Below, piece after piece: positions 29,197-50,913 of a stretch of 64,000 nucleotides of DNA. Each line of letters opens with the position of its first letter. Position 1 is the stretch's first letter. The notes under the pieces are model-generated. The model had not been told where the DNA came from. It ran no database searches and was given only the letters and a program-made list of their open reading frames with translations. The DNA lies in assembly GCA_937863435.1 (NCBI GenBank), contig CALMES010000136.1, forward strand, positions 15,238-79,237. The letters are read 5' to 3'. The DNA is from an uncultured Candidatus Peregrinibacteria bacterium. Its GTDB lineage: Bacteria; Patescibacteriota; Gracilibacteria; Peribacterales; Peribacteraceae. The translations under genes and the position numbers were made by a program.

Positions 29197-29201
29197 AAAA
29201 A

Positions 29202-29486: not shown

Positions 29487-29510
29487 AAAAGAGATGGGGA
29501 AGAAATAGAG

Positions 29511-30136: not shown

Positions 30137-30154
30137 AAAAGTAGTGGGAAAGAA

Positions 30155-34744: not shown

Positions 34745-34769
34745 AAGAGATTCGGAAGAGAAATTAGGA

Positions 34770-35564
34770 TTATAGCATCGCATCGATTGCTGCTTTGAAA
34801 TTCGCAAACGGTTGTGCGCCATTGATAAATTGCTGCTTCTGGGTTTTGAGATTCAGAACGAAGCTCCCGGGAGTTCCACTGACGCCTGCTGCCTGGCCGG
34901 CAGTCTCTTCATCTTGGACATGCTTGGCGTATTTGCCGGTATCGAGACAATCTTTGAATTTCGATTCATTGAGACCGAGTTCTTTTGCAAGCGGGACAAG
35001 ATTATCAAGCGGGAAGCCGGTGCCATTGGATGTCGTGCGTTCAAGGATCGCATCGTGATATTCCCAGAATTTTCCCTGATCTTCCGCGCAATCAGAGGCC
35101 TCTGCTTCTTTCTGCGCATTCGCATGGAAGCTCAGAGGAAAATGACGGTAGACGATCATCACTTTGTCCCCATAGTCCTTGCTGATCTGCTCCATCGTCG
35201 GTTCGACTCGCTTGCAGAATGGACACTCAAAATCCGAGTACTCGATGACCGCAATCGTTGCCTTCGCATTGCCGCGGATGTGATCTTTCTTGAAATCAAT
35301 TGCCGGTACCGTTGCTGCGACAGCCTGAGGAACGGGAGCCTGAGCTTGCGGAGCAGGTTGCGCTTGAGCGGCCGGAGCCTGTGCCACTTGCTGGGCAGAG
35401 GGGTTATTCGTTCCATTTGCAAGCGGGATTCTTCCACTCAGGACACTGGTGGCAACGAAGCCGACAATCATACCCATGAGCCCCATCGCTACACCGAACC
35501 AGATGTTCGTGCCGCCGGATCCGGCACTTCCGGAATGTTTCTGTTCTTGCCAATTGAGAGCCAT
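34770..35564 (-). CDS. DsbA-family thiol:disulfide oxidoreductase, membrane-anchored
   Basis: A TM helix, an Ala/Pro/Gln linker, and a thioredoxin-fold CPFC active site (FECPFCKR). Confidence 0.85.
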   Translation of the reverse strand: MALNWQEQKHSGSAGSGGTNIWFGVAMGLMGMIVGFVATSVLSGRIPLANGTNNPSAQQVAQAPAAQAQPAPQAQAPVPQAVAATVPAIDFKKDHIRGNAKATIAVIEYSDFECPFCKRVEPTMEQISKDYGDKVMIVYRHFPLSFHANAQKEAEASDCAEDQGKFWEYHDAILERTTSNGTGFPLDNLVPLAKELGLNESKFKDCLDTGKYAKHVQDEETAGQAAGVSGTPGSFVLNLKTQKQQFINGAQPFANFKAAIDAML

Positions 35565-35582
35565 AAAATGAGAAGAAAGGAA

Positions 35583-37184
35583 TTAAAGAACGGTGAATGA
35601 GCCGCGTACCATACCCATGGAACAGCTGAATGCGAGTTGGCCAGGATTGGGTGCAGTGAAATCAATTTCATTGATGCCGGTCGAAAGTGACTTCACGATA
35701 TTGAGATCAGGAATCACGATCTGGCTTGTGCAGCCGATAGCTCCGGCACCGTCTACCATCCACTTCACAGGCACTCCAGCTTTGATCGTAATGTTGCTCG
35801 GCTCATACCCATAACGAGTGACTTTCATGGCGACTTCCTGCACGCCGCCCGTGATGACGGGGGCTGATCCGACGGCAGCTGGTGGACCCTGAAGAATTGA
35901 TGAGAAATTGAATCCCGTTAATGCGAAACCGCTATTTAAATTGAAGAACGCAAGAACAAGCACGAGTGCCCCCGAAAATCGAAGAAACAGGCGTGACGTA
36001 GCTCCTTTCGTCGTCGATGAAACGGCACTCAAACCGATCAGTGACGGAAGCGTACCGAGCGCGAAAATGAACATCGTCAGAGCACCCGTGAGAAAGCTTC
36101 CCGACGCGAGTGCGACAAGCTGAAGCGATTGTGTGAATCCACACGGCAAAAAGAAGGTGAATGCGCCCAGCGCAAATGGTGCGGCGGGATGTTCACTTTC
36201 CGAGAGATTATGAATCCAGCGTGAGAGTTTTTTTGGCGGACGGATGGGGAAACTGCCTTTCGGAATGATTTGGAGAATCGTCAGAGCCAGCCACAGCATG
36301 ATCAATGCCACGGCGATGCTCATGTAACCGGACATCTTGGGGGAGAGAGTCACAGATTGACCGATGACTCCTACAACGCCACCGAGGACGAAGTAGGAAA
36401 CGAGCCGTCCGAGATTAAAGTGCAGAAGCGGCTTGAATTTCTCCCAGCTGGTTTCGGCCTGATGCAGCTCATTGTGTTTCGCGGCGAGTGCAAGAAGCAG
36501 GCCGCCGGTGACGGCAAGACAGCTGCTCGTTCCGGCGACGAGGCCGATGACAAAGATCCCTCCGAGTGAGAGTGCGCCCGACGTCGAAGGTGCAAGGGAA
36601 ACAAGGTCGAATGCCAATAGGAGTTTATAGATGGCGAAAATGATGAGTAGCGATCCGCCGATTTCGATCCATTTATTATGCGAAAGTTCAATAACAGACG
36701 GGGCTTCATCAGGACGTCGCAGATGGTATCCGGCATTTTCTACCGCATCGCGCAGATCATCCCAATCGGGCATCTGCGAAAAATGGATTTTCGCCGTACC
36801 TCGTTGATATTGAATGGAGGCACTTTTCACGCCCGCTACATGCTTCAGTCTTTTCTTGATGATGTGCTCAGAGTCCTTCGAGGTCATGCCATCGATACAG
36901 ACGTCGAGTATCCCATTCTGCATCACGGGACAGGCCTCATTGCTTGCCGGCTCATCTCCAATGCCATATCCGGCTTTTCTGATCACATCTTCAACTTCTT
37001 CGGAGGACGGAAGCGCGTCTTTGTTCGCCGTGATCATGGCGACACCCTTTCGATAGTTTACATCGACTTTGAGAACACCCGGAACGCTCTTGAGTTTGCG
37101 TTCGAGCAGCAATTCGCAGCTGCCGCATGTCATGCCTGAGATGCGGACTTCTGCGGTGAGTTGTTTCGATTCGGACATAGGCAA
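35583..37184 (-). CDS. fusion protein: 2 x HMA + DsbD/CcdA-like polytopic membrane domain + C-terminal cupredoxin-like domain
   Basis: First HMA GMTCGSC, second HMA-like domain without CxxC, about 6 TM helices (SSCLAVTGG, FFLPCGFTQ), and a C-terminus ending KAGVPVKWMVDG...CTSQIVIP...FSCSMGMVRG. Confidence 0.75.
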   Translation of the reverse strand: MPMSESKQLTAEVRISGMTCGSCELLLERKLKSVPGVLKVDVNYRKGVAMITANKDALPSSEEVEDVIRKAGYGIGDEPASNEACPVMQNGILDVCIDGMTSKDSEHIIKKRLKHVAGVKSASIQYQRGTAKIHFSQMPDWDDLRDAVENAGYHLRRPDEAPSVIELSHNKWIEIGGSLLIIFAIYKLLLAFDLVSLAPSTSGALSLGGIFVIGLVAGTSSCLAVTGGLLLALAAKHNELHQAETSWEKFKPLLHFNLGRLVSYFVLGGVVGVIGQSVTLSPKMSGYMSIAVALIMLWLALTILQIIPKGSFPIRPPKKLSRWIHNLSESEHPAAPFALGAFTFFLPCGFTQSLQLVALASGSFLTGALTMFIFALGTLPSLIGLSAVSSTTKGATSRLFLRFSGALVLVLAFFNLNSGFALTGFNFSSILQGPPAAVGSAPVITGGVQEVAMKVTRYGYEPSNITIKAGVPVKWMVDGAGAIGCTSQIVIPDLNIVKSLSTGINEIDFTAPNPGQLAFSCSMGMVRGSFTVL

Positions 37185-39047: not shown

Positions 39048-40364
39048 ATGTCACGCCACGGTACAAGCATTACTCATCACAAGAGCAGGCATCCGGCCGA
39101 TCTCAAGATTGCCTGGATCGACATCGATATGCTTCGTCCAGCTGCCTACAATCCGCGTACTCACAATGAGGCGCAGGAAGAACAGCTCACCGAGAGCATC
39201 GATGACTTCGGTGCCGTTGAACCTCTCGTCGTGAATGGTGCTAAAAATCGCCTGAATATCGTCATCGGCGGACACTTCCGACTTAAGATATTCCGCAAAC
39301 TCGGATACAAGACCGTTCCGGTCGTCTACGTGAATATCCCGAATGTCGAACGTGAAAAGGAGCTCAATCTGCGTCTGAACAAAAACACCGGCGACTGGGA
39401 CTGGGATGCACTCAAGCAATTTGATACCGATTTCCTGAAGGACGTCGGCTTCGACGCCGGTGAACTCGCGCAGTTCTGGGATGGCGGGCTGGAAACTGAA
39501 GACGACGGTTTCGATGTCGAGAAAGAATTGAAGAAGATCGGGAAGCCCAAGACAAAACGCGGCGATCGGTACCAACTTGGCTCCCATGTTCTCCTCTGCG
39601 AGGATGCGACAAATCCGGAGGATGTGAAGAGACTCGTTGGTAAGACCCAAATAGATATGGTCTATTGCGATCCGCCATACAATATCGATTTGTCGTACGA
39701 CAAAGGAATCAGCAACAAAATGCGCTACGGCGGAAAGACGAAGGATAATAAGACGGAAGAGGAATATCGGCAATTCTTGTTGACGACACTCGTGAATGCA
39801 TTGTCTGTGAGCAAGCCCAACATGCATCTCTTCTATTGGTGTGACCAGAAATTCATCGGCCTCCTGCAGAGCATGTATCCAAGTCTCGGTGTCGATTTCA
39901 GGCGGGTATGCCTGTGGATCAAAAACAACCAGAACATGACGCCGCAGGTCGCATTTAACAAATGCTATGAACCTTGCATCTACGGCGTTCGTGGCAAGCC
40001 GTACCTGTCGCCGAGCATCCAGAACTTGAATGAAGTGGCGAACAAGGAAGTCGGCAACGGCAATCGGCTCATCGACGACATACTCGATATGATGGATCTG
40101 TGGATGTGTAAGCGGCTGCCAACCGTTGAGTACGAGCATCCCACGGCTAAACCCCCGACCCTTCACGAGAAAGCCATCCGACGTTGCACCAAGCCTGGGG
40201 ATGCCATTCTCGATTTGTTCGGCGGTAGTGGTTCGACATTGGTCGCCGCACATCAAATGAAACGACGGGCGTTCCTCTGCGAAATCGAGCCTATTTTTTG
40301 CGATCTTATCATCCGTCGCTTCGAGGCCGTCTCCGGCCAGAAGGCTTCCCTGCTCAAATCATGA
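39048..40364 (+). CDS. ParB-like nuclease domain fused to a beta-class N6A/N4C DNA methyltransferase
   Basis: ParB/Srx N-terminus (IVIGGHFRLKIFRKLGYKTVPVV), motif IV MVYCDPPYNI, motif I DLFGGSGST. Confidence 0.85.
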   Translation: MSRHGTSITHHKSRHPADLKIAWIDIDMLRPAAYNPRTHNEAQEEQLTESIDDFGAVEPLVVNGAKNRLNIVIGGHFRLKIFRKLGYKTVPVVYVNIPNVEREKELNLRLNKNTGDWDWDALKQFDTDFLKDVGFDAGELAQFWDGGLETEDDGFDVEKELKKIGKPKTKRGDRYQLGSHVLLCEDATNPEDVKRLVGKTQIDMVYCDPPYNIDLSYDKGISNKMRYGGKTKDNKTEEEYRQFLLTTLVNALSVSKPNMHLFYWCDQKFIGLLQSMYPSLGVDFRRVCLWIKNNQNMTPQVAFNKCYEPCIYGVRGKPYLSPSIQNLNEVANKEVGNGNRLIDDILDMMDLWMCKRLPTVEYEHPTAKPPTLHEKAIRRCTKPGDAILDLFGGSGSTLVAAHQMKRRAFLCEIEPIFCDLIIRRFEAVSGQKASLLKS

Positions 40365-41134
40365 AGACCAACGCCATCACTATCGGCTCGGTCTTCCGAC
40401 TCGGAGACCACATACTCGGCTGCGGCGACAGTACGGACGCCGCGTTTGTCTCGCGCGTAATCGCAAAAACCAAGATCAACCTGATCCTTACCGATGTTCC
40501 GTATGGCGTCGCCTACGTTGAAGGCAAAGAAGAATTTCACAAGGGTAAAACCAAACATGTCGCTATCGCCAATGACCATGCGCAAGGAGACGACGAATAT
40601 CGAGCGTTCACTCGCAAGTGGTTGGAGGCCGTCCTTCCGTTCTTGGCTCGGAAAAATGCGCTGTATTGCTTCAACAGCGACAAGATGATTTTCGCTCTCC
40701 GTGAAGGAATGCAGGATGCAGGTTGGCACTTCGGCCAGCTCATCGTGTGGATCAAAAACCAAGCGATCCTTGGTCGGCTGGACTTCATGCCCCAGCACGA
40801 ACTGCTGGCGTATGGCTGGCATGGTGCTCATCAATTTTACAAGTCCAAGGACAAGAGCGTTATCGGGTACCCCAAGCCCTCCCGCAGCCGCTATCACCCT
40901 ACCGAAAAACCGATCGGCCTCCTGCGGCATCTGCTGCTCAACAGCTCACGGATCGAAGACACCATCTACGACCCGTTCCTCGGTTCCGGCTCGACACTCT
41001 TGGCAGCAGCGCAGACGAAGCGGCGATGCATCGGTATCGAACTTGATCCCAAGTACTGCGCGGTCGTGATCGAACGATTCCAGAAACTCACCGGTATCGA
41101 TGCCGAGGTACTTCCTTCCCCCTCCCGATCATGA
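40361..41134 (+). CDS. DNA methyltransferase (beta-class), variant motif IV
   Basis: Motif IV reads LILTDVPYG (DVPY instead of D/N/S-PPY). HPTEKP, motif I DPFLGSGST. An ATGA overlap with the upstream stop. Confidence 0.8.
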   Translation: MKTNAITIGSVFRLGDHILGCGDSTDAAFVSRVIAKTKINLILTDVPYGVAYVEGKEEFHKGKTKHVAIANDHAQGDDEYRAFTRKWLEAVLPFLARKNALYCFNSDKMIFALREGMQDAGWHFGQLIVWIKNQAILGRLDFMPQHELLAYGWHGAHQFYKSKDKSVIGYPKPSRSRYHPTEKPIGLLRHLLLNSSRIEDTIYDPFLGSGSTLLAAAQTKRRCIGIELDPKYCAVVIERFQKLTGIDAEVLPSPSRS

Positions 41135-41610
41135 ACAAGAATCAAAGCGTCATCGATGCTCGTAAAGCCCGCGAGCAGGCGGTACTTCTCGAACAACTGC
41201 GAAAAATGCCGATCGTTCAGATCGCATGTGAAAAATCCGGTGTATCGCGTGCCACGTACTACCGATGGAAAAAGGAAGATGAGCAATTCGCCGCCGCGGC
41301 CGACGAGGCATTGTTCGACGGGACGGCGTTAGTAAGTGATATGGCCGAAAGCCAACTGCTAGCACAAATACGTGACAACAACCTCGGCGCGATCATGTAC
41401 TGGCTCAAACACCGGAATCCGAATTACAACAACCGCCTCGAAGTAACGGCCAAGCTCAAGCATGAAGACGACAAACTCACGCCCGAACAGGAAGCCGCGA
41501 TCACCGAGGCACTCAAACTTGCATCCCTTGCAACCGACGAGGGCGCATCTACTACTCCTTCATCCAACTCGAGCAATGCAACCACCGAAGAAAACATCAC
41601 CGGAAAATGA
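41131..41610 (+). CDS. terminase small subunit-like HTH protein
   Basis: HTH IACEKSGVSRATYYRWKKED, and its position immediately 5' of TerL. An ATGA overlap with the methyltransferase stop. Confidence 0.55.
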   Translation: MNKNQSVIDARKAREQAVLLEQLRKMPIVQIACEKSGVSRATYYRWKKEDEQFAAAADEALFDGTALVSDMAESQLLAQIRDNNLGAIMYWLKHRNPNYNNRLEVTAKLKHEDDKLTPEQEAAITEALKLASLATDEGASTTPSSNSSNATTEENITGK

Positions 41611-41611
41611 G

Positions 41612-43204
41612 ATGCGTTCGCAGATGCTCAAGGATCGGAAGTACCGCCGTGAGGTGGTGCGGCAGAGCCACTACTGGTTCTTCCATTTTTATTTCTGGCA
41701 CTACGTCAAACATCGCACGGCGCAGTTCCAGCGTGAAATGTTCAAGATGACCGAGAACGAACTGTTGCGGCTCATCGCCATCACCGCGTTTCGCGGGTCG
41801 GGCAAGTCAACCATCATGAACATGTCGTTCGTGCTTTGGGCGATCCTCGGTGTCCGACAGAAAAAATTCGTCCTGATCGTCGGCCAGACACAAGCACAAG
41901 CCAGGCAACATCTGCGCAACATCAAAGAGGAACTGGAGAACAATAAAATACTGAAAGCCGATCTCTGGCCTTTCCATCCGGAAGAGGATGAGTGGCGTAA
42001 CAGTTGCCTGATGGTAACCAGTTACGGCGCGAAGATCATGGCGGTCAGCATCGATCAGGCCGTACGTGGGCTTCGACATGGTCAGTACCGGCCGGACTTG
42101 ATCATCTGCGATGACATCGAAGATCTGGATTCGGTGAAGACGCTCGAAGGCCGCGACAAGACCTATCGCTGGGTCAAAGGCGAACTCTTGCCGGCCGGTG
42201 ATACCAATACCACCACTGTTTTTATCGGTAACCTGCTCCACGAAGACTGTCTGCTCAAAAGGTTGCAACAGGAGATTGAGAGTGAAGCAACGGACTGCAC
42301 ATACCGTGAATATCCTCTTATAGATCTTGAGGGACGCTGCCTGTGGCCGGGCAAATACAAAAACGCGGCGGCGGTTGAATCTGAGCGTAAACGCATCGGC
42401 GATGCCAGCGCGTGGCATCGCGAATATCTGCTCCGCATCCTGCCCGATCACGAGCGGCTCATTCACCGCGATTGGATCAAGTACTACGCCAGCCTTCCCT
42501 TGGAAGACAATGACGATCATCTGCGACTTGTTGCCACCGGCATCGATTTGGCGATCTCCAAAAATGACAGCGCCGATAACACAGCCATGGTCTCTGGGCT
42601 GGTCTACGGACATGGAGAGGATATGCGGATTTACATACTTCCGAACCCTGTGAACGAACGGCTGACATTTCTGGAGACAATTGATCGCTCCAAGGATCTT
42701 GCCGATGCCATCGCCAGAGGAGGCCGTCGGACAGTGCTGCACGTCGAAGATGTCGGCTACCAGCATGCTCTCATCGAAGAACTAGAGCGCGATGGCTTGC
42801 ATGTGATCGGCGTGCCACCCAAAGGGCAGGACAAACGCGCACGGCTCGCGCTCGTCACGCACCTCATCCAGTCCAGTCGGGTGTTGTTTCCCATGACGGG
42901 ATGTGACGCTCTCGTGACCCAACTCGTCGGTTTCGGCAGCGAACGCTATGACGATCTCGCCGACGCGCTGGCGATCTTGCTTCTGCCAATCCTCGAATTG
43001 CAGGGACACAGAAGCAATCTCGATATCCTCGAACTCAACCGGCGACTTCACAATCCTACGTTTGAGGAGGAACGCGCCGAGGCGCGTAAGCACGACAGAT
43101 TTTTCTATCCAGATCACAGCGATGATCGAAATAGCGGCGGCTATTCGGCGCTGCGGGGACTCGGGCCGCTGTCTCACGACAATATTCTCAACATGCAGTT
43201 CTGA
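41612..43204 (+). CDS. terminase large subunit-like ATPase/nuclease (copy 1)
   Basis: Walker A AFRGSGKST, Walker B LIICDDIED, and nuclease acidic motifs GIDLA, VEDVGYQ and YDDLADA. Confidence 0.75.
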   Translation: MRSQMLKDRKYRREVVRQSHYWFFHFYFWHYVKHRTAQFQREMFKMTENELLRLIAITAFRGSGKSTIMNMSFVLWAILGVRQKKFVLIVGQTQAQARQHLRNIKEELENNKILKADLWPFHPEEDEWRNSCLMVTSYGAKIMAVSIDQAVRGLRHGQYRPDLIICDDIEDLDSVKTLEGRDKTYRWVKGELLPAGDTNTTTVFIGNLLHEDCLLKRLQQEIESEATDCTYREYPLIDLEGRCLWPGKYKNAAAVESERKRIGDASAWHREYLLRILPDHERLIHRDWIKYYASLPLEDNDDHLRLVATGIDLAISKNDSADNTAMVSGLVYGHGEDMRIYILPNPVNERLTFLETIDRSKDLADAIARGGRRTVLHVEDVGYQHALIEELERDGLHVIGVPPKGQDKRARLALVTHLIQSSRVLFPMTGCDALVTQLVGFGSERYDDLADALAILLLPILELQGHRSNLDILELNRRLHNPTFEEERAEARKHDRFFYPDHSDDRNSGGYSALRGLGPLSHDNILNMQF

Positions 43205-43230: not shown

Positions 43231-44730
43231 ATGAATACCGATACGCTGACACCGGATGTCCTGCTCGCAGTTGTCAAAGACCAGCATGTGCGCCGCACGC
43301 TCACGCGCCAAAGTCATTTGCTCTTCTTTCACATTTACTTTGGGCATTACGTGACGTGTCCGACTGCGCCGTTCCAGCGCGAGATTTTCAGCTTCACCGA
43401 AAATGATGAGCAGAAGCTTACAGCGATTACGGCTTTCAGAGGCTCAGCCAAGTCCACCATCGTGAGTTTGAGTTTTCCGCTGTGGGCGATTCTTGGTAAG
43501 CCAGGCGTGAAATTCGTGCTGCTCCTCGGTCAGACACAATCCCAGGCAAGGCAGCATCTGAAAAATCTGAAAGATGAGATAGAGCGCAACGAACTGCTGC
43601 GTAAAGACCTTGGACCGTTTGAAGAGCGTGAGGATGAATGGAATTCGTCGTCCATCGTCTTGCCGCTTCTCGGAGCACGCATCACAGCAGCATCGACCGA
43701 GACCAGCGTGCGTGGTATTCGCCATGGGCCGCACCGGCCGCAACTCATCATTTGTGACGACATCGAGGATCTGCAGTCGGTGAAAACCAAGGATGGCCGC
43801 GACAAGACCTATGGTTGGTTGATGGGCGAGGTCATTCCCTCCGGCGGACCCAAGACCCGTACATTCATCGTCGGCAACTTGCTGCACGAAGATTGTCTCC
43901 TCAAGAAATTCGAGCGGCACATCCAAGACGGTTCGATGGGCGGTATCTACCGCGAGTACCCGCTTCTTGCCGCTGACGGCAAAACGCTCTGGCCGGGGAA
44001 ATATCCGACTCCTGAAGCAATCGTCGAAGAGCGGTCACGCATCGGCAGCGAGGCGGCATGGCACCGTGAATTTCTGCTCAGAATCCTCTCCGACGCCGAG
44101 CGCGTCATCCACCCGCAGTGGATTCAGTACTACGACGAGTTTCCGATTGAACAAAAGGGGTGTCATCTCCACCACACAGGAACGGGCATCGATCTTGCCA
44201 TCTCTCTCAATGACAGTGCTGACTTCACCGCAATGGTCTCGGCCAGACTTTACTTCATCGATGGAAAAATCCGTATCTATATCCTGCCAAATCCGGTCAA
44301 CGAGCGACTTACCGCACTTGATACACTGGAGCGGGCAAAGCAGGTTGCAGACATCACGAAGGACTGCGGCACATCGAAACTCTACATCGAGGATGTCGGT
44401 TATCAGTCATCGCTTGTCGAACATCTTGAGCGCGAGAGCTACGAAGCAGAGGCAGTCAAAGTGAAAGGGCAGGACAAGCGGGCGCGTCTGGCACTTACCT
44501 CATATGCCGTTCAGTCCGGACAGGTTGTGTTCCCAAGGCAGGGAGCCGAGGATCTTATTAACCAACTCGTGAACTTTGGCATCGAACGTCATGATGATCT
44601 GGCCGATGCGTTCTCGCTGCTTGTTCTCAAAGCACTCGAAGAGCGGCAGACAAGTCTCGGGATTTGCGTAATCGGGTACGATGGCTCTATTCACGGGTGG
44701 GATAGCATTCGCGGCGAGTATTGGGAGTAA
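43231..44730 (+). CDS. terminase large subunit-like paralogue (copy 2) with an altered P-loop
   Basis: Collinear with copy 1 and, by eye, identical at roughly half of positions. Walker A reads AFRGSAKST, with Walker B and the nuclease motifs retained. Confidence 0.75.
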   Translation: MNTDTLTPDVLLAVVKDQHVRRTLTRQSHLLFFHIYFGHYVTCPTAPFQREIFSFTENDEQKLTAITAFRGSAKSTIVSLSFPLWAILGKPGVKFVLLLGQTQSQARQHLKNLKDEIERNELLRKDLGPFEEREDEWNSSSIVLPLLGARITAASTETSVRGIRHGPHRPQLIICDDIEDLQSVKTKDGRDKTYGWLMGEVIPSGGPKTRTFIVGNLLHEDCLLKKFERHIQDGSMGGIYREYPLLAADGKTLWPGKYPTPEAIVEERSRIGSEAAWHREFLLRILSDAERVIHPQWIQYYDEFPIEQKGCHLHHTGTGIDLAISLNDSADFTAMVSARLYFIDGKIRIYILPNPVNERLTALDTLERAKQVADITKDCGTSKLYIEDVGYQSSLVEHLERESYEAEAVKVKGQDKRARLALTSYAVQSGQVVFPRQGAEDLINQLVNFGIERHDDLADAFSLLVLKALEERQTSLGICVIGYDGSIHGWDSIRGEYWE

Positions 44731-44838
44731 TCAGGGCTTTCAGGCGATTTCAGGGCGAGGCAAGCGGGTCTTTCGCCTGGATACCGAGAGGGAGTTGCGG
44801 CATTGCTGTGGGTAGCTTATTTCCTACTCCTATTCCTT

Positions 44839-46215
44839 ATGACAACCGCAACTTTAAGCCGAAAATCGGCTATACCGGAACCCACGTACATCGATCTCAC
44901 ACCGAAACCGCAGCGAGCGGCGGGGGCAGCCCTCTACTGTTTGTACGCCAGAAAATCTTCGGAAGAGGATGAAAGACAAGCTCTTAGTATCGATTCGCAG
45001 ATCAAGGAAATGCTCGCCGTTGCGAAGCGGGAGAATTTGGAGATCGCAGAAATCCGGCGTGAAAGTCATTCGGCAAAGGCGTCGGGTGCCCGTCCCGTTT
45101 TCAAACAGCTACTCACGGACATCGCCATAGGGAAATTTACGGGGATTCTTACATGGGCACCGGATCGTCTGAGCAGGAATGCAGGTGACCTCGGGACAGT
45201 CGTTGATCTTATGGATCAAAAACTCCTCATTGATATCCGCACTCATAGTCAGCGATTCACCAATAATCCAAACGAGAAATTTCTTCTGATGATCCTCTGC
45301 TCACAGGCAAAACTTGAGAATGACAATCGAGGACTCAATGTGAAACGCGGACAGAAAACCAGAGTCGAAATGGGCTACCGGCCTTGTCTGACACCGCTTG
45401 GATATTTGCAAGAAAAACAAACCGGCAACGCCCGGAGCAAGGTAGTCATCGATCCGATTCGTGGACCGATCGTCCGGCAGATGTTCGAGCACGTTTCCCA
45501 GGGAGCAAGCGGACGCGTGCTGCAACAATGGCTCAACAAAGAGGTTCATTTCACCACGCGCAAAGGAAAGAAAATCACACTTAGCATGATCTACAGGATG
45601 CTCAGAAACACGTACTACACCGGTCGTTTTGAATATCCTGAGGGAAGCGGTAATTTTTACGACGGCGATTACGAGCCGCTTTTCTCAAAGAGACTCTTCG
45701 ACGATGTCCAAAAGGTCTTGGATCTCGCGCCGAAAAAAGAATGGGGTACGAACGATTTCCACTTCGTGAAGATGTTCACCTGCGGCGGGTGCGGATCGGG
45801 CGTCACGGCGGAGGAGAAGCACAAGTCGCTTAATGACGGCAGCATCAAGCGCTACATCTACTATCGTTGCACGCATAGCCGGAATTTGATGTGCAAGGAG
45901 CCATCGATCCGTGAGGATCACCTGATCGAGCAACTGACTGACCTCGTCGACATGATCGACCTCGACGAACTGGGGATGCGCGGAAAACTGGAAGATGAAG
46001 TGTCCCGGTTCAAGAAATTTTCCTCCGGTGTCCTCAGGCAAACGACCGACCGGACTGCGGAGGTGAACCGAGTCGATGTCCGGCAATACGCCAAATACAT
46101 CCTTCGGGAAGGAACGAAAGATGAGAAGCATGAACTGCTCGGATGCCTCAAGAGCAAGCTGATCCTGAGGGATGGGGCACTGGCACTTGAGAAGAAAATC
46201 AAGGGCAGAAAATAG
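44839..46215 (+). CDS. large serine recombinase
   Basis: Catalytic N-terminus YARKSSEEDERQALSIDSQ, DRLSRN, a recombinase domain and a zinc ribbon (CGGCGSG...YYRC). Confidence 0.9.
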   Translation: MTTATLSRKSAIPEPTYIDLTPKPQRAAGAALYCLYARKSSEEDERQALSIDSQIKEMLAVAKRENLEIAEIRRESHSAKASGARPVFKQLLTDIAIGKFTGILTWAPDRLSRNAGDLGTVVDLMDQKLLIDIRTHSQRFTNNPNEKFLLMILCSQAKLENDNRGLNVKRGQKTRVEMGYRPCLTPLGYLQEKQTGNARSKVVIDPIRGPIVRQMFEHVSQGASGRVLQQWLNKEVHFTTRKGKKITLSMIYRMLRNTYYTGRFEYPEGSGNFYDGDYEPLFSKRLFDDVQKVLDLAPKKEWGTNDFHFVKMFTCGGCGSGVTAEEKHKSLNDGSIKRYIYYRCTHSRNLMCKEPSIREDHLIEQLTDLVDMIDLDELGMRGKLEDEVSRFKKFSSGVLRQTTDRTAEVNRVDVRQYAKYILREGTKDEKHELLGCLKSKLILRDGALALEKKIKGRK

Positions 46216-46222
46216 CCATGGC

Positions 46223-46253
46223 GAACGTCCTCTATGAATGTGAGAGGACGTTC
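46223..46253. terminator. perfect 11-bp hairpin between convergent genes
   Basis: GAACGTCCTCT-atgaatgtg-AGAGGACGTTC. No clear U-tract follows on either strand. Confidence 0.45.
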
Positions 46254-46261
46254 TGCCGGTC

Positions 46262-47170
46262 TTATTTCTTGGCCTTCGGCTCGGCGTCGCGGGTCGGAAT
46301 CGTGCCACCAAAGATGTACTTGAACGACACGCTTGCCGTTTTGATGGCGGGATTGTCGGTACCAATCGTCTCGAACGGAGAGATTTGCCCGGGGAGAATG
46401 GGATTGTACTTGATCATCGCATCATCGCTTTTGATAAAATTATCGTCTTTATCATAGAAGCTCGCGACTACTTGTACTCCTTCCATTTTCTGCCCGCTGA
46501 TGTTCTTCACGGCTCCCTGAACTTTGTCGAAATCATACGACTTCGTGAAGTTGAAAGTCTGGAGTTCGAGAAGTGGAGCGTCATTCTGCGCTTGTTCTGG
46601 AGTGGTTGCTGATGGCGTATTCGATGCTGAAGGAGAGGACGAAGGAGTCGGAGCACTTGCGACAGCACCTGAGACAATAGCGAGGAGGAAAACCCCGACG
46701 ATCGAGAGGGCGACACCGTTTTTGTTGGAGAAGGTCTCGGGTTGATTCACGCCGGATGCCTCGGCTTTCTTGTCGTAACTGCTGGTGATCAAGTGCATGA
46801 TGATCCCTCCGATGAGGCCGATCACAAACATCAATCCTACGACGAATGTACCGCCGATTGCAGTGCCAATGGCGGCTCCGGCTTGCTCCGCATTGGAACC
46901 GGCATGCCCGACGACACGAGCACCAAGGACAAATGTATACACAACTGCGGAGATGGGGAGCAGAAAGAAGGCGAGTTCCGTCAGGCGGAGTAGTCGCTCA
47001 CTGATGTGATTTTTCTCGGTAAACTGCCACGCGCTCCAGATCATGACGAGCCAGATGGCGAGGAATCCGAAACCGAGGGCTTTGTTTCCGGTCATCAGAC
47101 CGTAGTTTTGAGTGAAGACGAGTGCCGGTAACAGCGCCAGCAGCACTTTGCGAAGAACATGGTTCTTCAT
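46262..47170 (-). CDS. polytopic membrane protein with a Ser/Pro linker and an extracytoplasmic FxLYD-like C-terminal domain
   Basis: Five or six TM helices, the linker APTPSSSPSASNTPSATTPE, and a beta-rich C-terminus (VVASFYDKDDNFI). An alternative start is at 47212. Confidence 0.6.
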   Translation of the reverse strand: MKNHVLRKVLLALLPALVFTQNYGLMTGNKALGFGFLAIWLVMIWSAWQFTEKNHISERLLRLTELAFFLLPISAVVYTFVLGARVVGHAGSNAEQAGAAIGTAIGGTFVVGLMFVIGLIGGIIMHLITSSYDKKAEASGVNQPETFSNKNGVALSIVGVFLLAIVSGAVASAPTPSSSPSASNTPSATTPEQAQNDAPLLELQTFNFTKSYDFDKVQGAVKNISGQKMEGVQVVASFYDKDDNFIKSDDAMIKYNPILPGQISPFETIGTDNPAIKTASVSFKYIFGGTIPTRDAEPKAKK

Positions 47171-47416
47171 AGGGAAGAGGGGGAAGAAGGGTAGAGCCGT
47201 CCCCTGGTACATCCCAAAAGGGACAACCCCGGAGGCAGGTCGCCCACATTCCCATGCCTGTCGGCACGTTCAGTGGCTGCGCAGGGTTGCCCCTTACGAC
47301 ACTGAAGTGCCAAATATGACAGGAGTATGAAAATACTGGGAACTGGGCGACAGACCCAATTTAGCTCACTTAGAAGCCATTGTGTAGCGGAGTTTGCGGG
47401 AACGGAAAGGGCTGTC

Positions 47417-47827
47417 TTACTCTCCTTTCTTTTGTTTCGCCTGAATAAGCCATGTTGAGTGCTCACGGGAAATCTGGCTTTCGCACCGTTCCGTGAGCAA
47501 CTGATCACCATTGGTTCCGGCATAGACACCGGCTTTTGATTTGAACATCTCCCTCTCATGCCTGAGTGATTCCGTTGTCGCGCGGTAATTGATCCATTTC
47601 TCTTGAGGCTTGAGAACGCCATCGAGAGCTTCAATCGAGATGATCAAGATGCCAATCAATCCAACGAGCCAACCCGACAGAGCTGAAAAATAACCCATAA
47701 AAATAAGGCAAGCAGAAATGACAATGGTGGCAATGCGGAATATGTAGAACAAGCGTTTGTTGGCTATACTCTTTTGGTCATACCACTGAATTTCTGGTTC
47801 CAGCCGTTGCTCAAGATAATCGCTCAT
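47417..47827 (-). CDS. SLATT / DUF4231-like 2-TM protein
   Basis: 136 aa with N-terminal QWYDQKSIANKRLFY, two TM helices (IFRIATIVISACLIFMGYF; WLVGLIGILIISIEAL), then WINYRATTESLRHEREMF. This matches the DUF4231/SLATT pattern from memory. Confidence 0.7.
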   Translation of the reverse strand: MSDYLEQRLEPEIQWYDQKSIANKRLFYIFRIATIVISACLIFMGYFSALSGWLVGLIGILIISIEALDGVLKPQEKWINYRATTESLRHEREMFKSKAGVYAGTNGDQLLTERCESQISREHSTWLIQAKQKKGE

Positions 47828-47839
47828 CGTGTTGAAGAA

Positions 47840-48307
47840 TTATAATCCAAGCTGCGTATATATCTCGGATTTATAGTGGTAATCGTCATCTTTGTTCATG
47901 GTGTAGTTTTCTAGAGCATGCTTGATAATGGCTGCATTGAAAGGAACGAAGATGGCTCCGATGTCATGGATCCAGGAAGGACAACGATCATCGCTCTGCC
48001 GCGAGCCATTCAAGTTCACGCCAATGATGGTGCATCCTTTTTCGATGGCCACCTCGGCCTCCCACGGCACATACTTCCTTTTATATTTGGTATTTTCGCC
48101 GATGAGCTGGATGAACTTTCCTGCCATGTTGATGCGCTCACGGCATTTACTTTTCACATAGGCTTCATTATCAGAGTTAATGACATCCGGAAGTTGGCAG
48201 TCAGTAAAGTTGAAATCGATGTGTTCATTATTTTTCCATGCCTGCATCAGGCGGTAATAATTGATGTCATCACTGCTGAAACCGACGAATGTGCGAGGTA
48301 AACTCAT
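47840..48307 (-). CDS. TIR-like domain protein (DUF1863 / ThsB-type)
   Basis: 155 aa with TFVGFSSDDINYY, IQLIGENTKYKRKYVPWEAEVAIEKGCTIIGV. The pattern and size fit the PF08937-type TIR-like fold, with a conserved W-E. Confidence 0.7.
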   Translation of the reverse strand: MSLPRTFVGFSSDDINYYRLMQAWKNNEHIDFNFTDCQLPDVINSDNEAYVKSKCRERINMAGKFIQLIGENTKYKRKYVPWEAEVAIEKGCTIIGVNLNGSRQSDDRCPSWIHDIGAIFVPFNAAIIKHALENYTMNKDDDYHYKSEIYTQLGL

Positions 48308-48464
48308 ATGGGAAGCGATCTTATCCTAATTTTGCTTATAGCTCAATTTGCGTTCTTATTGGTCAATTTCTTACTGAGGCATGCGGGTATAGAACAAAAT
48401 TTGAGATCAAATATTTTGGCTATAGTAAGCCAATGCAAGCGGGTCTATAAACACGCGCACGTAG

Positions 48465-48539
48465 TGGCTGGGGAGGAGGGATTCGAACCCCCGAATGCTT
48501 GCTCCAGAGGCAAGTGCCTTACCACTTGGCGACTCCCCA
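48465..48539 (-). tRNA. tRNA-Gln (anticodon CTG), CCA encoded
   Basis: A manual cloverleaf fold gives acceptor TGGGGAG/CTCCCCA (U1-A72), D arm GCC..GGC, anticodon stem CTTGC/GCAAG with loop CTCTGGA, T arm GGGGG-TTCGAAT-CCCTC, and a 3' GCCA. Confidence 0.9.
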
Positions 48540-48690
48540 ATTGTTCATTTTGATTCTGAGCGCCCCTCTTTTGGTAGAAGAGCCCGGAGATTGTATAAGG
48601 AAAGAGGCTTTCTGCAAAGTGGCAATCGCAGTGGTCGTATACCTCATCATCTGGCCAGCAATCATGTTCCTACGCAACTGGATTTTGCGT

Positions 48691-50913
48691 ATGAGCCTGT
48701 ATACTCATCTGTATCTTTGTCTTATTCGTTTGTCTTTCATTTCTCCAGTACCGGTTCGCTTGAAATACATCTGGTCTTCGGCGCTCTTTGTTGTTGTCTT
48801 GATTCTTCCGCATACGGCGTTTGCCAATCTTAGTTATATCTCTACATATAGCGCTACGACGTCTCCTCTTGGCATAAGCACACCCCGGGCAATGCGTATG
48901 GCAAGCGATGGATCGCTCTATGTGCTTGGCTCTAGCACGTTTCGCATGGCAAAATTTTCGGCCGATGGATCCTCCGCTCAGGCAATTTCGTTTGGAGCAT
49001 CGCTTCCATCAACTGGCAACGGCCTTCTTATAACCGGCAGCACGCTGTATATAACAACAACGGGAACGAGAGTGGTCCGACATGCCATTGTAGGAACGAG
49101 TACGGTGCAGGAAATCACTGCGGGATTGACCGCTTCATCGACGAGCACGGATATTGCATTCCGGCCAGACGGAGCAATCTATGTTACCAAAGGCACGGCA
49201 TTATCAGCGCTCACGACGGATCTTACCTCTATTGTGCCGGATGTATCGCTTAGTATTAACGCAAACCGCATGGCTATGGATGGTGCTGGCAATCTTTATT
49301 ATGTAAATACGATAGCAAAAACGATCCGTAAAGTGACATTTTCGGACAACTCCATCGTTTCTGATTCGGTTTTAGTTTCATTCGCTGCTTCGAGCATCTC
49401 GTTGCAACGAGCTCTGTTTGTATCGCCAGCTGGTGATATCTATTTTGCGGATGCGAGCAGTACGCCTTACATCAGCAAGTATTCATCCGGAGGTGTTCTT
49501 CTGTGGACTTATACTTCACAAGCCGGAGCTGGCACTCTTTCCGGCATGCAGAGCATGACGGTCGATAGTAACGGGATAGTGTACGTCATCAATACGTCGG
49601 GGGTGGTGAAAATGTATTCGCAGGTAGATGTACCAACCGGTGTAACCGCACAAGTCTCTGGCACCAGTGTAACCTTCAACTGGACGGCGCCAACGGATCC
49701 AGCCTACGCGAGCACCAGCATTCGTCGCAGTACAAGTGCGTATCCGATCATCAGTAATGGAACGAGTGTGGCAACCGACATCACGACAACGACTTCTACC
49801 GATAGCGGCCTCGCCGACGGTGTGTATTACTATTCTCTGTTTCACAAGAATGCCAATGGCATCTATAGCGGAGCCGCAAATGCCTTGGTGATTATCGATA
49901 CCAGCGGCTACACCGATGTCTGTGGCACACCGTACGCGTATTGGAAATTGGATGAAACCGGCTCAACACTCGCAATCGATTCCAGCGGCAACGGTTTTAG
50001 CGGAGCGCTGTACAGTACCGCTCCGACCCTTTCGAGTGATGTACCAACCAATACCGGCGTGAGCGACAGTTATAGCTTCCACTTTACGCGAGCAGGCAGC
50101 GGCCAGGCGCTGCAGGCAAGCCGGCCCGTGCAAGACGATTTTACGTTGTGTGCGTGGTTTAAGACGACGGCAACCGGTAGCAATATTTATCATTATACCA
50201 CCATGCCGTTGTTTGAATCCGAAGTGGGCGGAATAGGCAATGACTTTGGTTTCGGTGTAGATAACAGTGGTTACCTGGCCTTTGGGAATGGTGCTCTTGG
50301 CGGCGTGGATACCACTATCCGCAGTACGTCACTCGTCACAACCGGTACGTGGACACACGGCTGCGCTTCGCGGCGCAAAGCAAATGGTGCCATAGCCGTC
50401 TATATTAACGGCGTGCGCGAGGCCAGCGGAACAGGATCCACCACCTCTCTCAATGGCAACGCAAACATGCTGATCGGTGCCGGGAGTGATGGCGGCGTCT
50501 ATTGGGATGGAAATATTGATGAAGCGCGTGTGTACAACACCGTGTTATCTTCCGATGATATCCATGCGTTGGCGACGGGGTTAAATGAATGCCGTGCCTC
50601 CAGTTCGTCGTCATCTTCTTCCAGTTCCAGCAGCACACCTGCCATACAGCGGGGCGGACACAGAGGTGACAGCACTGCGCAAATCGTGAGAGTATTGCGG
50701 TCACGCGAAGCATCTGAGGCGTCAAGCAGTACGCCTGCTCCTGCTCCTGCTCCTGCGCCAAGCCGCACTCTGGCGACATCTTCTCCTGCTTCCAGCCCAC
50801 TGCAAGTACGCACCTGCAGGCGCGTGACCAAATGGTTTAGCACGGATACCGGTACCGTTCGCCGCCTGAATGTACGGCTCATGAAGTGGTTTGGCTTTAC
50901 GTGCGGGGAGTAA
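48691..50913 (+). CDS. large secreted protein: beta-propeller (NHL-like) + FN3-like + LamG/ConA-like lectin domain + poly-Ser / (PA)n linker + basic tail
   Basis: Signal anchor ending HTAFA. The LamG-type end LNGNANMLIGAGSDGGVYWDGNIDEARVYNTVLS. The ORF 5' of 48664 overlaps the tRNA, so the start is set at 48691 (or 48664). Confidence 0.7.
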   Translation: MSLYTHLYLCLIRLSFISPVPVRLKYIWSSALFVVVLILPHTAFANLSYISTYSATTSPLGISTPRAMRMASDGSLYVLGSSTFRMAKFSADGSSAQAISFGASLPSTGNGLLITGSTLYITTTGTRVVRHAIVGTSTVQEITAGLTASSTSTDIAFRPDGAIYVTKGTALSALTTDLTSIVPDVSLSINANRMAMDGAGNLYYVNTIAKTIRKVTFSDNSIVSDSVLVSFAASSISLQRALFVSPAGDIYFADASSTPYISKYSSGGVLLWTYTSQAGAGTLSGMQSMTVDSNGIVYVINTSGVVKMYSQVDVPTGVTAQVSGTSVTFNWTAPTDPAYASTSIRRSTSAYPIISNGTSVATDITTTTSTDSGLADGVYYYSLFHKNANGIYSGAANALVIIDTSGYTDVCGTPYAYWKLDETGSTLAIDSSGNGFSGALYSTAPTLSSDVPTNTGVSDSYSFHFTRAGSGQALQASRPVQDDFTLCAWFKTTATGSNIYHYTTMPLFESEVGGIGNDFGFGVDNSGYLAFGNGALGGVDTTIRSTSLVTTGTWTHGCASRRKANGAIAVYINGVREASGTGSTTSLNGNANMLIGAGSDGGVYWDGNIDEARVYNTVLSSDDIHALATGLNECRASSSSSSSSSSSSTPAIQRGGHRGDSTAQIVRVLRSREASEASSSTPAPAPAPAPSRTLATSSPASSPLQVRTCRRVTKWFSTDTGTVRRLNVRLMKWFGFTCGE

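What the first reader, a model, noticed from the sequence alone, without database searches (positions are those of the whole stretch)
47417..48307. TIR-like (DUF1863/ThsB-type) + SLATT (DUF4231) 2-TM gene pair beside tRNA-Gln: candidate minimal Thoeris-like abortive-infection module
Seen in the sequence: two minus-strand ORFs sit 12 nt apart (TAA ttcttcaacacg ATG). The upstream 155-aa protein has the DUF1863/ThsB TIR-like pattern (FVGFSSDD..., LIGENT..., YVPWEAEVAIEKG...IIGV) and includes the W-E where ThsB-type TIRs carry the catalytic Glu. The downstream 136-aa protein has two TM helices followed by WINYRATTESLRHEREMF, the DUF4231/SLATT hallmark. The pair lies between a serine-recombinase element and tRNA-Gln, a typical defence-islet position. 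Both genes carry the host-style C/T-rich, SD-less leaders. Established knowledge: ThsB TIR proteins make NAD-derived signals in Thoeris, and SLATT was proposed from comparative genomics (Burroughs/Aravind) as a membrane-perturbing effector partnered with TIR, SMODS and SLOG. Inference: this would be a TIR sensor/signal generator paired with a pore-type effector, with no SIR2/SLOG/Macro ThsA. To my knowledge such a bare TIR-like + SLATT pair has no experimentally defined phenotype or mechanism.
Basis: partly seen in the sequence, partly recalled or inferred. Interest (0 to 1): 0.8.

Follow-up and report, generated by a model that had tools for sequence, protein, structure and literature searches.

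The report
Type VII Thoeris phage-defence gene pair
This is a real, well-conserved two-gene anti-phage module (a TIR signal-making enzyme plus a small SLATT membrane protein) in a Peribacteria genome, but it belongs to a kind, "type VII Thoeris", that was tested experimentally in a 2025 preprint, so it is a new member and not a new system.

Summary
Two minus-strand genes 12 nt apart encode a 155-aa ThsB-type TIR (47840-48307) and a 136-aa two-TM SLATT_1/DUF4231 protein (47417-47827), just downstream of tRNA-Gln.

Both domain calls are strong. The TIR glutamate E83 aligns with the catalytic E85 of Bacillus cereus ThsB. Both genes are under strong purifying selection (dN/dS 0.03-0.06).

The functional reading, a Thoeris-like signal generator plus membrane effector, is supported. 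The novelty claim is not. Yirmiya et al. (bioRxiv 10.64898/2025.12.03.692087) named TIR+SLATT "type VII Thoeris" (ThsB+ThsH). They showed phage defence, infection-dependent production of canonical cADPR, and cADPR-triggered toxicity.

Two local features stand out:
- The effector is the short single-SLATT_1 form, whereas this TIR clade usually partners a ~290-aa SLATT_3+SLATT_1 protein. Short SLATT_1+TIR pairs are nevertheless common elsewhere, including Bacillus relatives of a validated system and staphylococcal prophages.
- The pair rides beside a large serine recombinase in a phage-derived element.

The signal molecule of this TIR clade has not been measured. Verdict: a new member of a known kind, of low to moderate interest.

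The parts
47840..48307 (-). thsB: 155-aa ThsB-type TIR protein, the predicted infection-activated NAD+-consuming signal synthase. The putative catalytic Glu is E83, within W82-E83.
   Evidence: Pfam PF08937 6.4e-15; PADLOC ThsB1 6.7e-45. The AF2 model (pLDDT 79) matches the EcThsB2 crystal structure 8v6t at TM 0.82. E83 aligns with BcThsB E85 and is invariant in 39 homologues. dN/dS is 0.04-0.055 against Peribacteria relatives.
47828..47839 (-). 12-nt intergenic spacer (ttcttcaacacg) between thsB and the SLATT gene. The spacing implies co-transcription.
   Evidence: Read directly from the sequence. The same tight TIR-to-SLATT spacing (12 nt, or a 4-nt overlap) is seen in relatives L009-L011, L162 and L164.
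47417..47827 (-). thsH-like effector: a 136-aa single-domain SLATT_1/DUF4231 protein with two TM helices (about residues 24-46 and 52-72). The N-terminal helix and the C-terminal helical region are predicted to be cytoplasmic.
   Evidence: Pfam DUF4231 1.7e-18 and SLATT_1 2.4e-10; NCBIfam SLATT_1 6.8e-29. The AF2 model is all-helical with pLDDT 84. Invariant residues R8, Y16, W78, Y81, R82, E86, E116 and W126 all lie outside the TM helices. dN/dS is 0.03-0.036. It is 33% identical (2.5e-26) to the short SLATT next to the B. altitudinis homologue of a validated type VII TIR.
48465..48539 (-). tRNA-Gln(CTG). This is context only: its 3' end faces the pair, and synteny with the closest genome (L009) ends at its 5' end.
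   Evidence: ARAGORN; Rfam; blastn of L009 against the window.
44803..46215 (+). Large serine recombinase/integrase of the phage-derived element that appears to carry the pair. This is context, not part of the defence mechanism.
   Evidence: Pfam Resolvase+Recombinase+Zn_ribbon_recom; phrog_95 integrase 1.9e-56. A 90%-identical recombinase lies beside the pair in L162 with different cargo between them, and a 29%-identical one lies beside the pair in L164.

Best explanation
The pair is a type VII Thoeris system (ThsB + ThsH) carried as cargo of a serine-recombinase, phage-derived element in a Candidatus Peribacteria (Peregrinibacteria, CPR) genome.

Proposed mechanism, with each step marked as shown or inferred:
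1. The 155-aa TIR protein is inactive until it senses phage infection. This is inferred from validated homologous systems.
2. It then uses its conserved Glu83 site to convert NAD+ into a cyclic ADP-ribose signal, most likely canonical N1-cADPR. The active site is shown by alignment. The product is inferred.
3. The signal binds the cytoplasmic helices of the 136-aa two-TM SLATT_1 protein, where the family's invariant Arg, Trp, Tyr and Glu residues lie. The protein oligomerises and compromises the membrane, which stops growth of the infected cell before phage are released. This step is inferred; the paper itself only models it.

Here the effector is the short single-domain SLATT_1 form. It would have to homo-oligomerise to do what the tandem SLATT_3+SLATT_1 ThsH does.
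For: Domain identity.

TIR fold and active site: the best PDB match is EcThsB2 8v6t (profile E 1.6e-28; TM 0.82). E83 aligns with BcThsB E85 and is invariant.

Both genes are functional, with dN/dS 0.03-0.055.

Conserved pairing: among 23 species-representative genomes with a TIR at least 60% identical, 13 have a SLATT_3+SLATT_1 gene immediately downstream and 3 (all Peregrinibacteria) have the short SLATT_1. The pair recurs in L005-7, L009-11, L089-96, L162 and L164.

Experimental precedent (Yirmiya et al.): TIR+SLATT systems from P. nitratireducens, an Alteromonadales scaffold and B. licheniformis defended against phage. Their TIRs made cADPR only after infection. cADPR, but not 2'- or 3'-cADPR, stopped growth of cells carrying the Alteromonadales or the B. 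licheniformis system.

Short and long effectors are interchangeable:
- The validated P. nitratireducens TIR (100% identical domain in L107) is followed by a 294-aa SLATT_3+SLATT_1 protein.
- TIRs reported as 58-72% identical to it are followed by short SLATT_1 proteins of 141-160 aa in L112, L115, L126 and L142; the L142 match covers only residues 70-137.
- A B. altitudinis TIR 75% identical to the validated B. licheniformis TIR is preceded by a short SLATT_1 (NCBIfam 4e-36). That protein is 33% identical to the window's.
- Three of four sampled short SLATT_1 relatives are flanked by TIR genes.

Phage-borne precedent: S. aureus phage X2 carries DUF4231 (145 aa) + TIR (135 aa) next to its integrase (PMC9503650).
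Against: - No experiment exists on this pair or on any member of its TIR subclade.
- The nearest tested TIR is Bacillus sp. PvP124 (47% identity, type VII, cluster 2598792572). It gave no defence in B. subtilis.
- That TIR cluster otherwise partners TM-Macro effectors (type II, His-ADPR) and ion-channel effectors (type X, signal unknown). TIR phylogeny therefore does not point to cADPR.
- The window's SLATT is only about 22% identical to the C-terminal domain of the validated long ThsH.
- I could not retrieve the effector of B. licheniformis SCCB 37. Its short form is inferred from a B. altitudinis homologue.
- No SLATT structure is solved, so pore formation is modelled and not demonstrated.
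- The key source is a preprint.
Confidence: 0.78

Rival explanations
1. The architecture and logic are the same (TIR signal activates a SLATT membrane effector), but the signal is not canonical cADPR. It could be His-ADPR, as in type II Thoeris, or the still unidentified product of type X TIRs. This TIR belongs to that sequence cluster.
For: - The window TIR is 47% identical to a cluster-2598792572 TIR, 43% and 32% identical to type X TIRs, and 38-46% identical to TIRs that sit beside TM-Macro genes in 51 genomes.
- The type X signal is unknown.
- The only tested type VII system with a TIR of this cluster did not defend, so its product was never measured.
Against: - Effector type, not TIR clade, tracked the signal in the validated cases. 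All three defending SLATT systems, with TIRs from three different clusters, used cADPR.
- The window's SLATT groups with short SLATT_1 proteins that partner close relatives of cADPR-producing TIRs.
- None of the type V-XI TIRs that were assayed made detectable His-ADPR.
Confidence: 0.15
2. The TIR is not a signal generator. It is an NAD+-depleting toxin or effector, and the SLATT protein acts as a separate membrane sensor or toxin, or as the partner in a toxin-antitoxin-like or prophage superinfection-exclusion pair.
For: Yirmiya et al. caution that TIRs in some unverified configurations may be NADase effectors. The pair sits in a lysogeny-module-like position next to an integrase, where exclusion genes are common.
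Against: - The TIR is a small stand-alone ThsB-type domain with no sensor fusion. Its best structural and profile matches are Thoeris ThsB proteins.
- Closely related TIRs swap between SLATT and TM-Macro partners (and, in the paper's larger TIR cluster, ion-channel partners), as expected if the TIR supplies a diffusible signal to interchangeable effectors.
- SLATT systems that were tested behaved as signal-activated effectors.
Confidence: 0.05
3. The pair is a decaying remnant. The 136-aa SLATT would be a truncated half of the usual ~290-aa ThsH and no longer functional.
For: In this TIR clade, 13 of 16 SLATT partners are the long two-domain form. The short form is confined to Peregrinibacteria.
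Against: - The short protein is full length against the SLATT_1 models (NCBIfam positions 1-129 of 132).
- It carries all family-invariant residues.
- dN/dS is about 0.03.
- It is closer to stand-alone SLATT_1 proteins (33-44% identity) than to either half of the long ThsH (15-22%). It is therefore an effector swap, not a truncation.
Confidence: 0.02

Closest known systems
Type VII Thoeris (ThsB + ThsH), Yirmiya et al. 2025, bioRxiv 10.64898/2025.12.03.692087. Validated from B. licheniformis SCCB 37, Pseudohongiella nitratireducens SCS-111 and an Alteromonadales scaffold.
   Same: A two-gene operon of a stand-alone TIR and a SLATT-domain membrane protein, with no ThsA. The TIR keeps the catalytic Glu. 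The effector has the same Pfam/NCBIfam families. A short single SLATT_1 partner is also seen beside close relatives of two validated TIRs.
   Different: - The TIR is only 32% identical to the closest validated one (B. licheniformis) and 24% to the Alteromonadales one. It gave no BLASTP hit at E<=10 to the Pseudohongiella one.
- It belongs to a cluster whose one tested SLATT system did not defend.
- Gene order is TIR then SLATT, as in Pseudohongiella but opposite to the Bacillus loci.
- The effector is half the size of the validated Pseudohongiella ThsH (136 vs 294 aa).
- The host is a CPR bacterium.
- The signal is unmeasured.
Type II Thoeris (ThsB + TM-Macro effector, His-ADPR signal); structure of EcThsB2, PDB 8v6t
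   Same: This has the closest solved TIR structure (34% identity, TM 0.82). TIRs 38-46% identical to the window's sit beside TM-Macro genes in 51 genomes, many of them CPR. The logic of a membrane-acting effector is the same.
   Different: The effector here has no Macro domain. The ligand-sensing domain is therefore different, and the signal is probably different too.
Prophage-borne TIR + DUF4231/SLATT pairs of Firmicute phages (e.g. Staphylococcus phage X2, 187, SN8/SN10), noted by Iyer, Burroughs, Anantharaman & Aravind 2022 (PMC9503650)
   Same: A short SLATT (145 aa) and a small TIR (135 aa) are adjacent and sit next to the integrase of a temperate element. SLATT identity to the window is 34-36%.
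   Different: Gene order is reversed (SLATT then TIR). TIR identity is only about 30-32% over two thirds of the protein. Those are complete phages, whereas the window's element has terminase, methylase and integrase genes but no visible capsid or tail genes.
CBASS and other SMODS/SLOG systems with SLATT or 2TM effectors (Burroughs et al. 2015, cited from my own knowledge)
   Same: The same effector superfamily and the same idea of a nucleotide-activated membrane effector. There is a weak PADLOC hit to the CBASS '2TM effector' model (0.025).
   Different: No CD-NTase/SMODS or SLOG gene lies nearby. The signal generator here is a TIR.

Membership tests
Type VII Thoeris (ThsB + ThsH) | A stand-alone ThsB-type TIR protein with the catalytic glutamate | tested here: met
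   PF08937 6.4e-15 and PADLOC ThsB1 6.7e-45. Fold match to ThsB crystal structures. E83 aligns with BcThsB E85 and is invariant.
Type VII Thoeris (ThsB + ThsH) | An adjacent, co-oriented SLATT-domain transmembrane effector | tested here: met
   12-nt spacing on the same strand. DUF4231 1.7e-18, SLATT_1 2.4e-10 and 6.8e-29. Two TM helices in the model.
Type VII Thoeris (ThsB + ThsH) | The TIR-SLATT neighbourhood is conserved across genomes | tested here: met
   16 of 23 genomes with a TIR at least 60% identical have a SLATT gene directly downstream. The pair is kept in diverged Peregrinibacteria loci in different contexts. Three of four sampled short SLATT_1 relatives have TIR neighbours.
Type VII Thoeris (ThsB + ThsH) | Effector homologous to an experimentally validated ThsH | tested here: inconclusive
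   It is 33% identical (2.5e-26) to the short SLATT beside a B. altitudinis TIR that is 75% identical to the validated B. licheniformis TIR. It is only ~22% identical (E 0.03) to the C-terminal domain of the validated P. nitratireducens-type ThsH. The B. licheniformis SCCB 37 effector sequence itself was not obtainable.
Type VII Thoeris (ThsB + ThsH) | The TIR produces canonical cADPR upon phage infection | not testable with these tools
   This needs LC-MS of infected cells. It is known only for other TIR clusters.
Type VII Thoeris (ThsB + ThsH) | cADPR-specific activation of effector toxicity, and phage defence | not testable with these tools
   Shown for the validated systems only. The closest tested TIR relative (Bacillus sp. 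PvP124) showed no defence in B. subtilis.
Type I Thoeris (ThsB + SIR2-SLOG ThsA) | A SIR2-SLOG ThsA gene next to the TIR | tested here: not met
   The neighbours are an FxLYD membrane protein, a serine recombinase, terminases, tRNA-Gln and a Laminin_G_3 protein. No SIR2 or SLOG hit appeared in Pfam or PADLOC.
Type II Thoeris (ThsB + TM-Macro effector) | A Macro domain in the transmembrane effector | tested here: not met
   The effector has no ThsA_Macro hit. Related TIRs at 38-46% identity do have TM-Macro partners.
CBASS with a SLATT/2TM effector | A CD-NTase (SMODS) signal synthase in the operon | tested here: not met
   No such gene lies within about 10 kb. The SLATT hit to the PADLOC CBASS 2TM effector model is only 0.025.

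The most novel reading that the evidence does not exclude
This Peregrinibacteria pair combines a TIR from the sequence cluster that otherwise serves type II (His-ADPR) and type X (unknown signal) Thoeris with a short SLATT_1 effector. No member of this TIR cluster that partners a SLATT has a measured product. The pair could therefore signal with a molecule other than canonical cADPR. If so, SLATT_1 domains would be tunable to several ADPR-derived ligands, and 'type VII' would not be one signal class. It would also be the first characterised cyclic-ADPR-type immune module native to an episymbiotic CPR bacterium.
Probability: 0.15. Interest if true: 0.5.

Novelty: new member of a known kind. Interest (0 to 1): 0.22.

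Why it matters
The practical value is modest, in three respects.
- The pair extends type VII Thoeris to Peregrinibacteria. Many other CPR lineages in the same search already carry type II Thoeris, so Thoeris in CPR is not itself a surprise.
- It is a clean natural example of effector swapping. Closely related TIRs partner the long SLATT_3+SLATT_1 protein or the short SLATT_1, and more distant ones (38-46% identity) partner TM-Macro.
- It is a compact 0.9-kb candidate for testing two things: whether a single SLATT_1 domain suffices for signal-gated membrane disruption, and which ADPR isomer this TIR clade makes.

It does not open a new class of system.

Tried and rejected
- att-site search. I blasted the tRNA-Gln region (48301-48560) against the whole window. 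It gave only chance-level repeats of 12 nt or less. The best, 44760-44771 = 48435-48446, has E 0.78. The limits of the mobile element remain undefined.
- SLATT structure comparison. The AF2 model (pLDDT 84) had no PDB match with E below 0.6, and the family profile had no meaningful PDB hit. No solved SLATT structure exists to compare with.
- The search for related loci with the 40-sequence SLATT alignment failed because no stretch was conserved enough. I sampled contexts with the look-up of encoding contigs instead.
- Promoter/terminator scan of 47100-48600. Nothing above shuffled background, and nothing on the minus strand upstream of thsB.
- A single-sequence word-indexed search with the SLATT protein found only 5 close relatives. 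The exhaustive HMMER search was needed to show that the family is large: 1905 clusters.
- Truncated-ThsH hypothesis. Rejected.
- FxLYD membrane protein downstream (46262-47212). I considered it as a third component and rejected it. It is replaced by other genes in L011, L162 and L164.
- Peregrinibacteria or Patescibacteria in the paper's supplementary tables. No occurrence in the stored, truncated text.
Full report
**1. What is in the sequence**

The minus strand carries two ATG-initiated ORFs. One is 47840-48307 (155 aa) and the other is 47417-47827 (136 aa). They are separated by 12 nt (TAA ttcttcaacacg ATG). tRNA-Gln(CTG) lies at 48465-48539 on the same strand, with its 3' end facing the pair.

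**2. Identity of the two proteins**

The 155-aa protein matches Pfam ThsB_TIR (PF08937, 6.4e-15) over the whole model. It also matches nine PADLOC models, eight of them ThsB; the best is ThsB1 PDLC00429 at 6.7e-45.
- A profile of 39 homologues hits the crystal structure 8v6t (EcThsB2) at 1.6e-28, and B. cereus ThsB (9b7d/6lhy) at about 6e-5.
- An AlphaFold2 model (pLDDT 79) superposes on 8v6t at TM 0.82. Other TIR structures follow, including 8fz9, 6lhy, SARM1 and SPARTA.
- In the HMMER alignment, the window's W82-E83 sits on the R-Y-E85 of BcThsB, the known catalytic glutamate. W82 and E83 are invariant across the 39 homologues.

The 136-aa protein matches DUF4231 (1.7e-18) and SLATT_1 (Pfam 2.4e-10; NCBIfam 6.8e-29, positions 1-129 of 132).
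- Its model (pLDDT 84) is all-helical. It has a long N-terminal helix running into TM1, then TM2, then two cytoplasmic helices.
- The residues invariant in 60 family members are R8, Y16, W78, Y81, R82, E86, E116 and W126. All lie outside the two hydrophobic helices.
- No solved structure resembles it.

**3. Both genes are real and maintained**

The nearest genomes are Candidatus Peribacteria / Peregrinibacteria MAGs. L009 has a TIR 98% identical at the protein level and is 88% identical at the nucleotide level over window 43847-48540.

Pairwise Nei-Gojobori estimates between the window, L009 and L010 give:

| Gene | dN/dS | dS |
|---|---|---|
| TIR | 0.04-0.055 | 0.15-0.47 |
| SLATT | 0.03-0.036 | 0.32-0.52 |

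**4. Is the pairing conserved?**

The TIR family is unusually well conserved: 65-75% identity across Proteobacteria, Firmicutes, Cyanobacteria, Nitrospira and CPR, with 952 hits.

I examined 80 species-representative genomes.

| TIR identity to the window | Loci | Immediate downstream partner |
|---|---|---|
| at least 60% | 23 | 13 long 287-333-aa SLATT_3+SLATT_1 (up to four TM helices); 3 short SLATT_1 of 135-136 aa (all Peregrinibacteria); 7 other or none (TIR_2 genes nearby in 2, truncated TIR matches in 2) |
| 38-46% (plus L067, a frameshifted TIR at 73%) | 57 | 51 TM + ThsA_Macro (classical type II Thoeris); 1 long SLATT; 5 none |

Many of the type II loci are from Saccharibacteria, Paceibacterota and other CPR lineages.

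The window's SLATT is not a truncated long ThsH.
- It is 33-44% identical to stand-alone SLATT_1 proteins, but only 15-22% identical to either half of the long form.
- Stand-alone short SLATT_1 proteins form a very large family: 1905 50%-identity clusters at E<=1e-3.
- Three of four that I sampled are flanked by ThsB_TIR or TIR_2 genes.

**5. What is already known**

Yirmiya, Leavitt, ... Sorek (bioRxiv 10.64898/2025.12.03.692087, Dec 2025) surveyed TIR operons and named TIR+SLATT 'type VII Thoeris', with ThsH as the effector. Three of the six type VII operons they tested defended against phage: an Alteromonadales scaffold, Pseudohongiella nitratireducens SCS-111 and B. licheniformis SCCB 37. 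For those three systems:
- The TIRs produced canonical cADPR only after infection.
- For the Alteromonadales and B. licheniformis systems, 1 mM cADPR in the medium, but not 2'- or 3'-cADPR, blocked growth.
- The Tad1 and MoTad2 sponge proteins did not inhibit defence by the Alteromonadales system.
- AF3 modelled ThsH as a membrane-spanning oligomer with positively charged pockets between protomers.

Types VII and VIII together occur in about 2% of genomes. A 2026 preprint already uses the system as a cADPR biosensor. Iyer et al. 2022 described the TIR+SLATT neighbourhood in Firmicute phages.

**6. How close is this pair to the validated ones?**

I compared the window with the TIR domain sequences in the paper's Table S1.

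| Tested TIR | System type | Identity to the window TIR | Result in the paper |
|---|---|---|---|
| Bacillus sp. PvP124 (cluster 2598792572) | VII | 47% | no defence |
| Vibrio sp. JCM 19052 | X | 43% | toxic, not tested |
| Bacillus sp. BH32 | X | 32% | defended, signal unknown |
| B. licheniformis SCCB 37 | VII | 32% | defended, cADPR |
| Alteromonadales scaffold | VII | 24% | defended, cADPR |

I recovered a P. nitratireducens locus with a 100% identical TIR domain (L107). Its downstream gene is a 294-aa SLATT_3+SLATT_1 protein. In the same TIR clade, four loci whose TIR matches are 58-72% identical (L142 over residues 70-137 only) have a short SLATT_1 of 141-160 aa instead: L112, L115, L126 and L142.

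A B. altitudinis TIR 75% identical to the validated B. licheniformis TIR is preceded, with an 8-nt overlap, by a short SLATT_1 (NCBIfam 4e-36). That protein is 33% identical to the window's. So long and short SLATT effectors are interchangeable partners of cADPR-type TIRs. The validated Bacillus system very probably uses the short form, though I could not obtain its effector sequence.

An alignment of short SLATTs with the two halves of long ThsH shows a division of motifs.
- The N-terminal half of the long form keeps the W-x-x-x-R-x-x-x-E motif.
- The C-terminal half keeps the R-x-x-x-Q...Y-x-x-K and S-R-E-H-x-x-W motifs.
- The short proteins carry all of these motifs.

This suggests, by inference only, that the long form is a diverged tandem pseudo-dimer and that the short form works as a higher-order homo-oligomer.

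**7. Genomic setting**

Upstream of the pair on the plus strand lie, in order:
- a ParB-methyltransferase (39048-40364);
- a second methyltransferase (40298-41134);
- a small terminase (41131-41610);
- two tandem large-terminase paralogues, 54% identical to each other (41462-43204 and 43231-44730);
- a large serine recombinase (44803-46215).

An FxLYD-domain membrane protein (46262-47212) follows on the minus strand. No capsid, portal or tail genes are evident. Genes further upstream are heavy-metal resistance functions.

In relatives, the pair is again within a few kb of a large serine recombinase.
- L162: the recombinase is 90% identical, but a helicase plus methylase replaces the FxLYD gene.
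- L164: the recombinase is 29% identical and sits with an S24 repressor.

In the more distant L011, the pair lies beside tRNA-Asp. Synteny between the window and L009 stops at the 5' end of tRNA-Gln. The S. aureus phage X2 pair likewise sits beside its integrase. The pair is therefore best seen as defence cargo of an integrative, phage-derived element. I found no att repeat.

**8. Mechanism and confidence**

- Shown here: a ThsB-type fold with an intact catalytic Glu; a two-TM SLATT_1 partner in an operon-like arrangement; purifying selection; and conserved, modular pairing.
- Inferred from the validated systems: infection-triggered NAD+ conversion to a cyclic ADPR signal, which gates SLATT oligomerisation and membrane failure.
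- Least secure step: the identity of the signal. This TIR's cluster also serves His-ADPR (type II) and unknown-signal (type X) systems, and its one tested SLATT system did not defend.

I put 0.78 on 'type VII Thoeris working as described', and about 0.15 on the same logic with a different signal.

**9. Verdict**

The feature is real and correctly read, but it is already explained. It is a new member of a known kind, with a minor twist (a short effector on a TIR clade that usually has the long one) and a CPR host. Interest is low to moderate.

Noticed in passing
window 41462-43204 and 43231-44730 (+): Two tandem large-terminase genes, 54% identical to each other and both phrog_38. They are preceded by a small terminase, a ParB-methyltransferase and a second methyltransferase, and followed by a serine integrase. 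No capsid, portal or tail genes are nearby. This looks like a phage-derived or satellite-like element with a duplicated TerL.
   Followed up: partly
L162 1-7077; L164 1-9089; window 44803-48307: The TIR + short SLATT pair always lies within a few kb of a large serine recombinase, but the cargo between them differs. It is an FxLYD membrane protein in the window and a ResIII/SWI2_SNF2/YagJ helicase plus N6_N4 methylase in L162. In L164 the serine recombinase and an S24 repressor lie on the other (upstream) side of the pair. This suggests a variable defence-cargo slot in a family of integrative elements.
   Followed up: partly
L005 4748-4981 (= L011, Peregrinibacteria CG10): A 77-aa DUF2188 gene sits 20 nt upstream of the TIR gene in this relative, and tRNA-Asp lies about 580 nt upstream. 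Yirmiya et al. list DUF2188 as an untested putative Thoeris effector. The window has no such gene.
   Followed up: no
window 44760-44771 and 48435-48446: A 12-nt perfect direct repeat brackets the recombinase-FxLYD-SLATT-TIR block. It lies just upstream of the recombinase start and between thsB and the tRNA-Gln 3' end. At E 0.78 it is at chance level, and it is not the kind of att site expected for a serine recombinase.
   Followed up: no
L008 3252-5474 (Paenibacillus algicola); L019; L031: In some genomes the same highly conserved TIR (about 70% identity) has no SLATT partner. Instead it sits with a second TIR_2 protein and, in L008, a TPR-S/MAP3K_TRAF_bd protein. This may be a type VIII-like or other multi-TIR Thoeris arrangement.
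   Followed up: no
L102-L104 1883-3832; L105-L106 2409-3973: Short SLATT_1 genes flanked on both sides by different ThsB_TIR genes (TIR-[175 aa]-SLATT-TIR, and TIR-SLATT-TIR). These are two-TIR, one-effector versions of the system.
   Followed up: no
window 46262-47212 (-): A 316-aa multi-TM protein with a C-terminal FxLYD domain (NCBIfam NF038353, 2.3e-8) lies directly downstream of the SLATT gene. It is conserved in the closest relatives but replaced in more distant ones, so it is probably not part of the system.
   Followed up: partly
window 26002-37184 (-): A heavy-metal/copper handling cluster: two P-type ATPases, a multicopper oxidase, DsbD-HMA-cupredoxin and a DsbA-like thioredoxin. It lies immediately upstream of the phage-like block.
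   Followed up: no
window 48499-50913 (+): A large Laminin_G_3 (concanavalin-like) protein with a long poly-Ser run and PAPAPA repeats near its C-terminus lies on the far side of tRNA-Gln. This region is not syntenic with the closest Peribacteria genome, L009.
   Followed up: no
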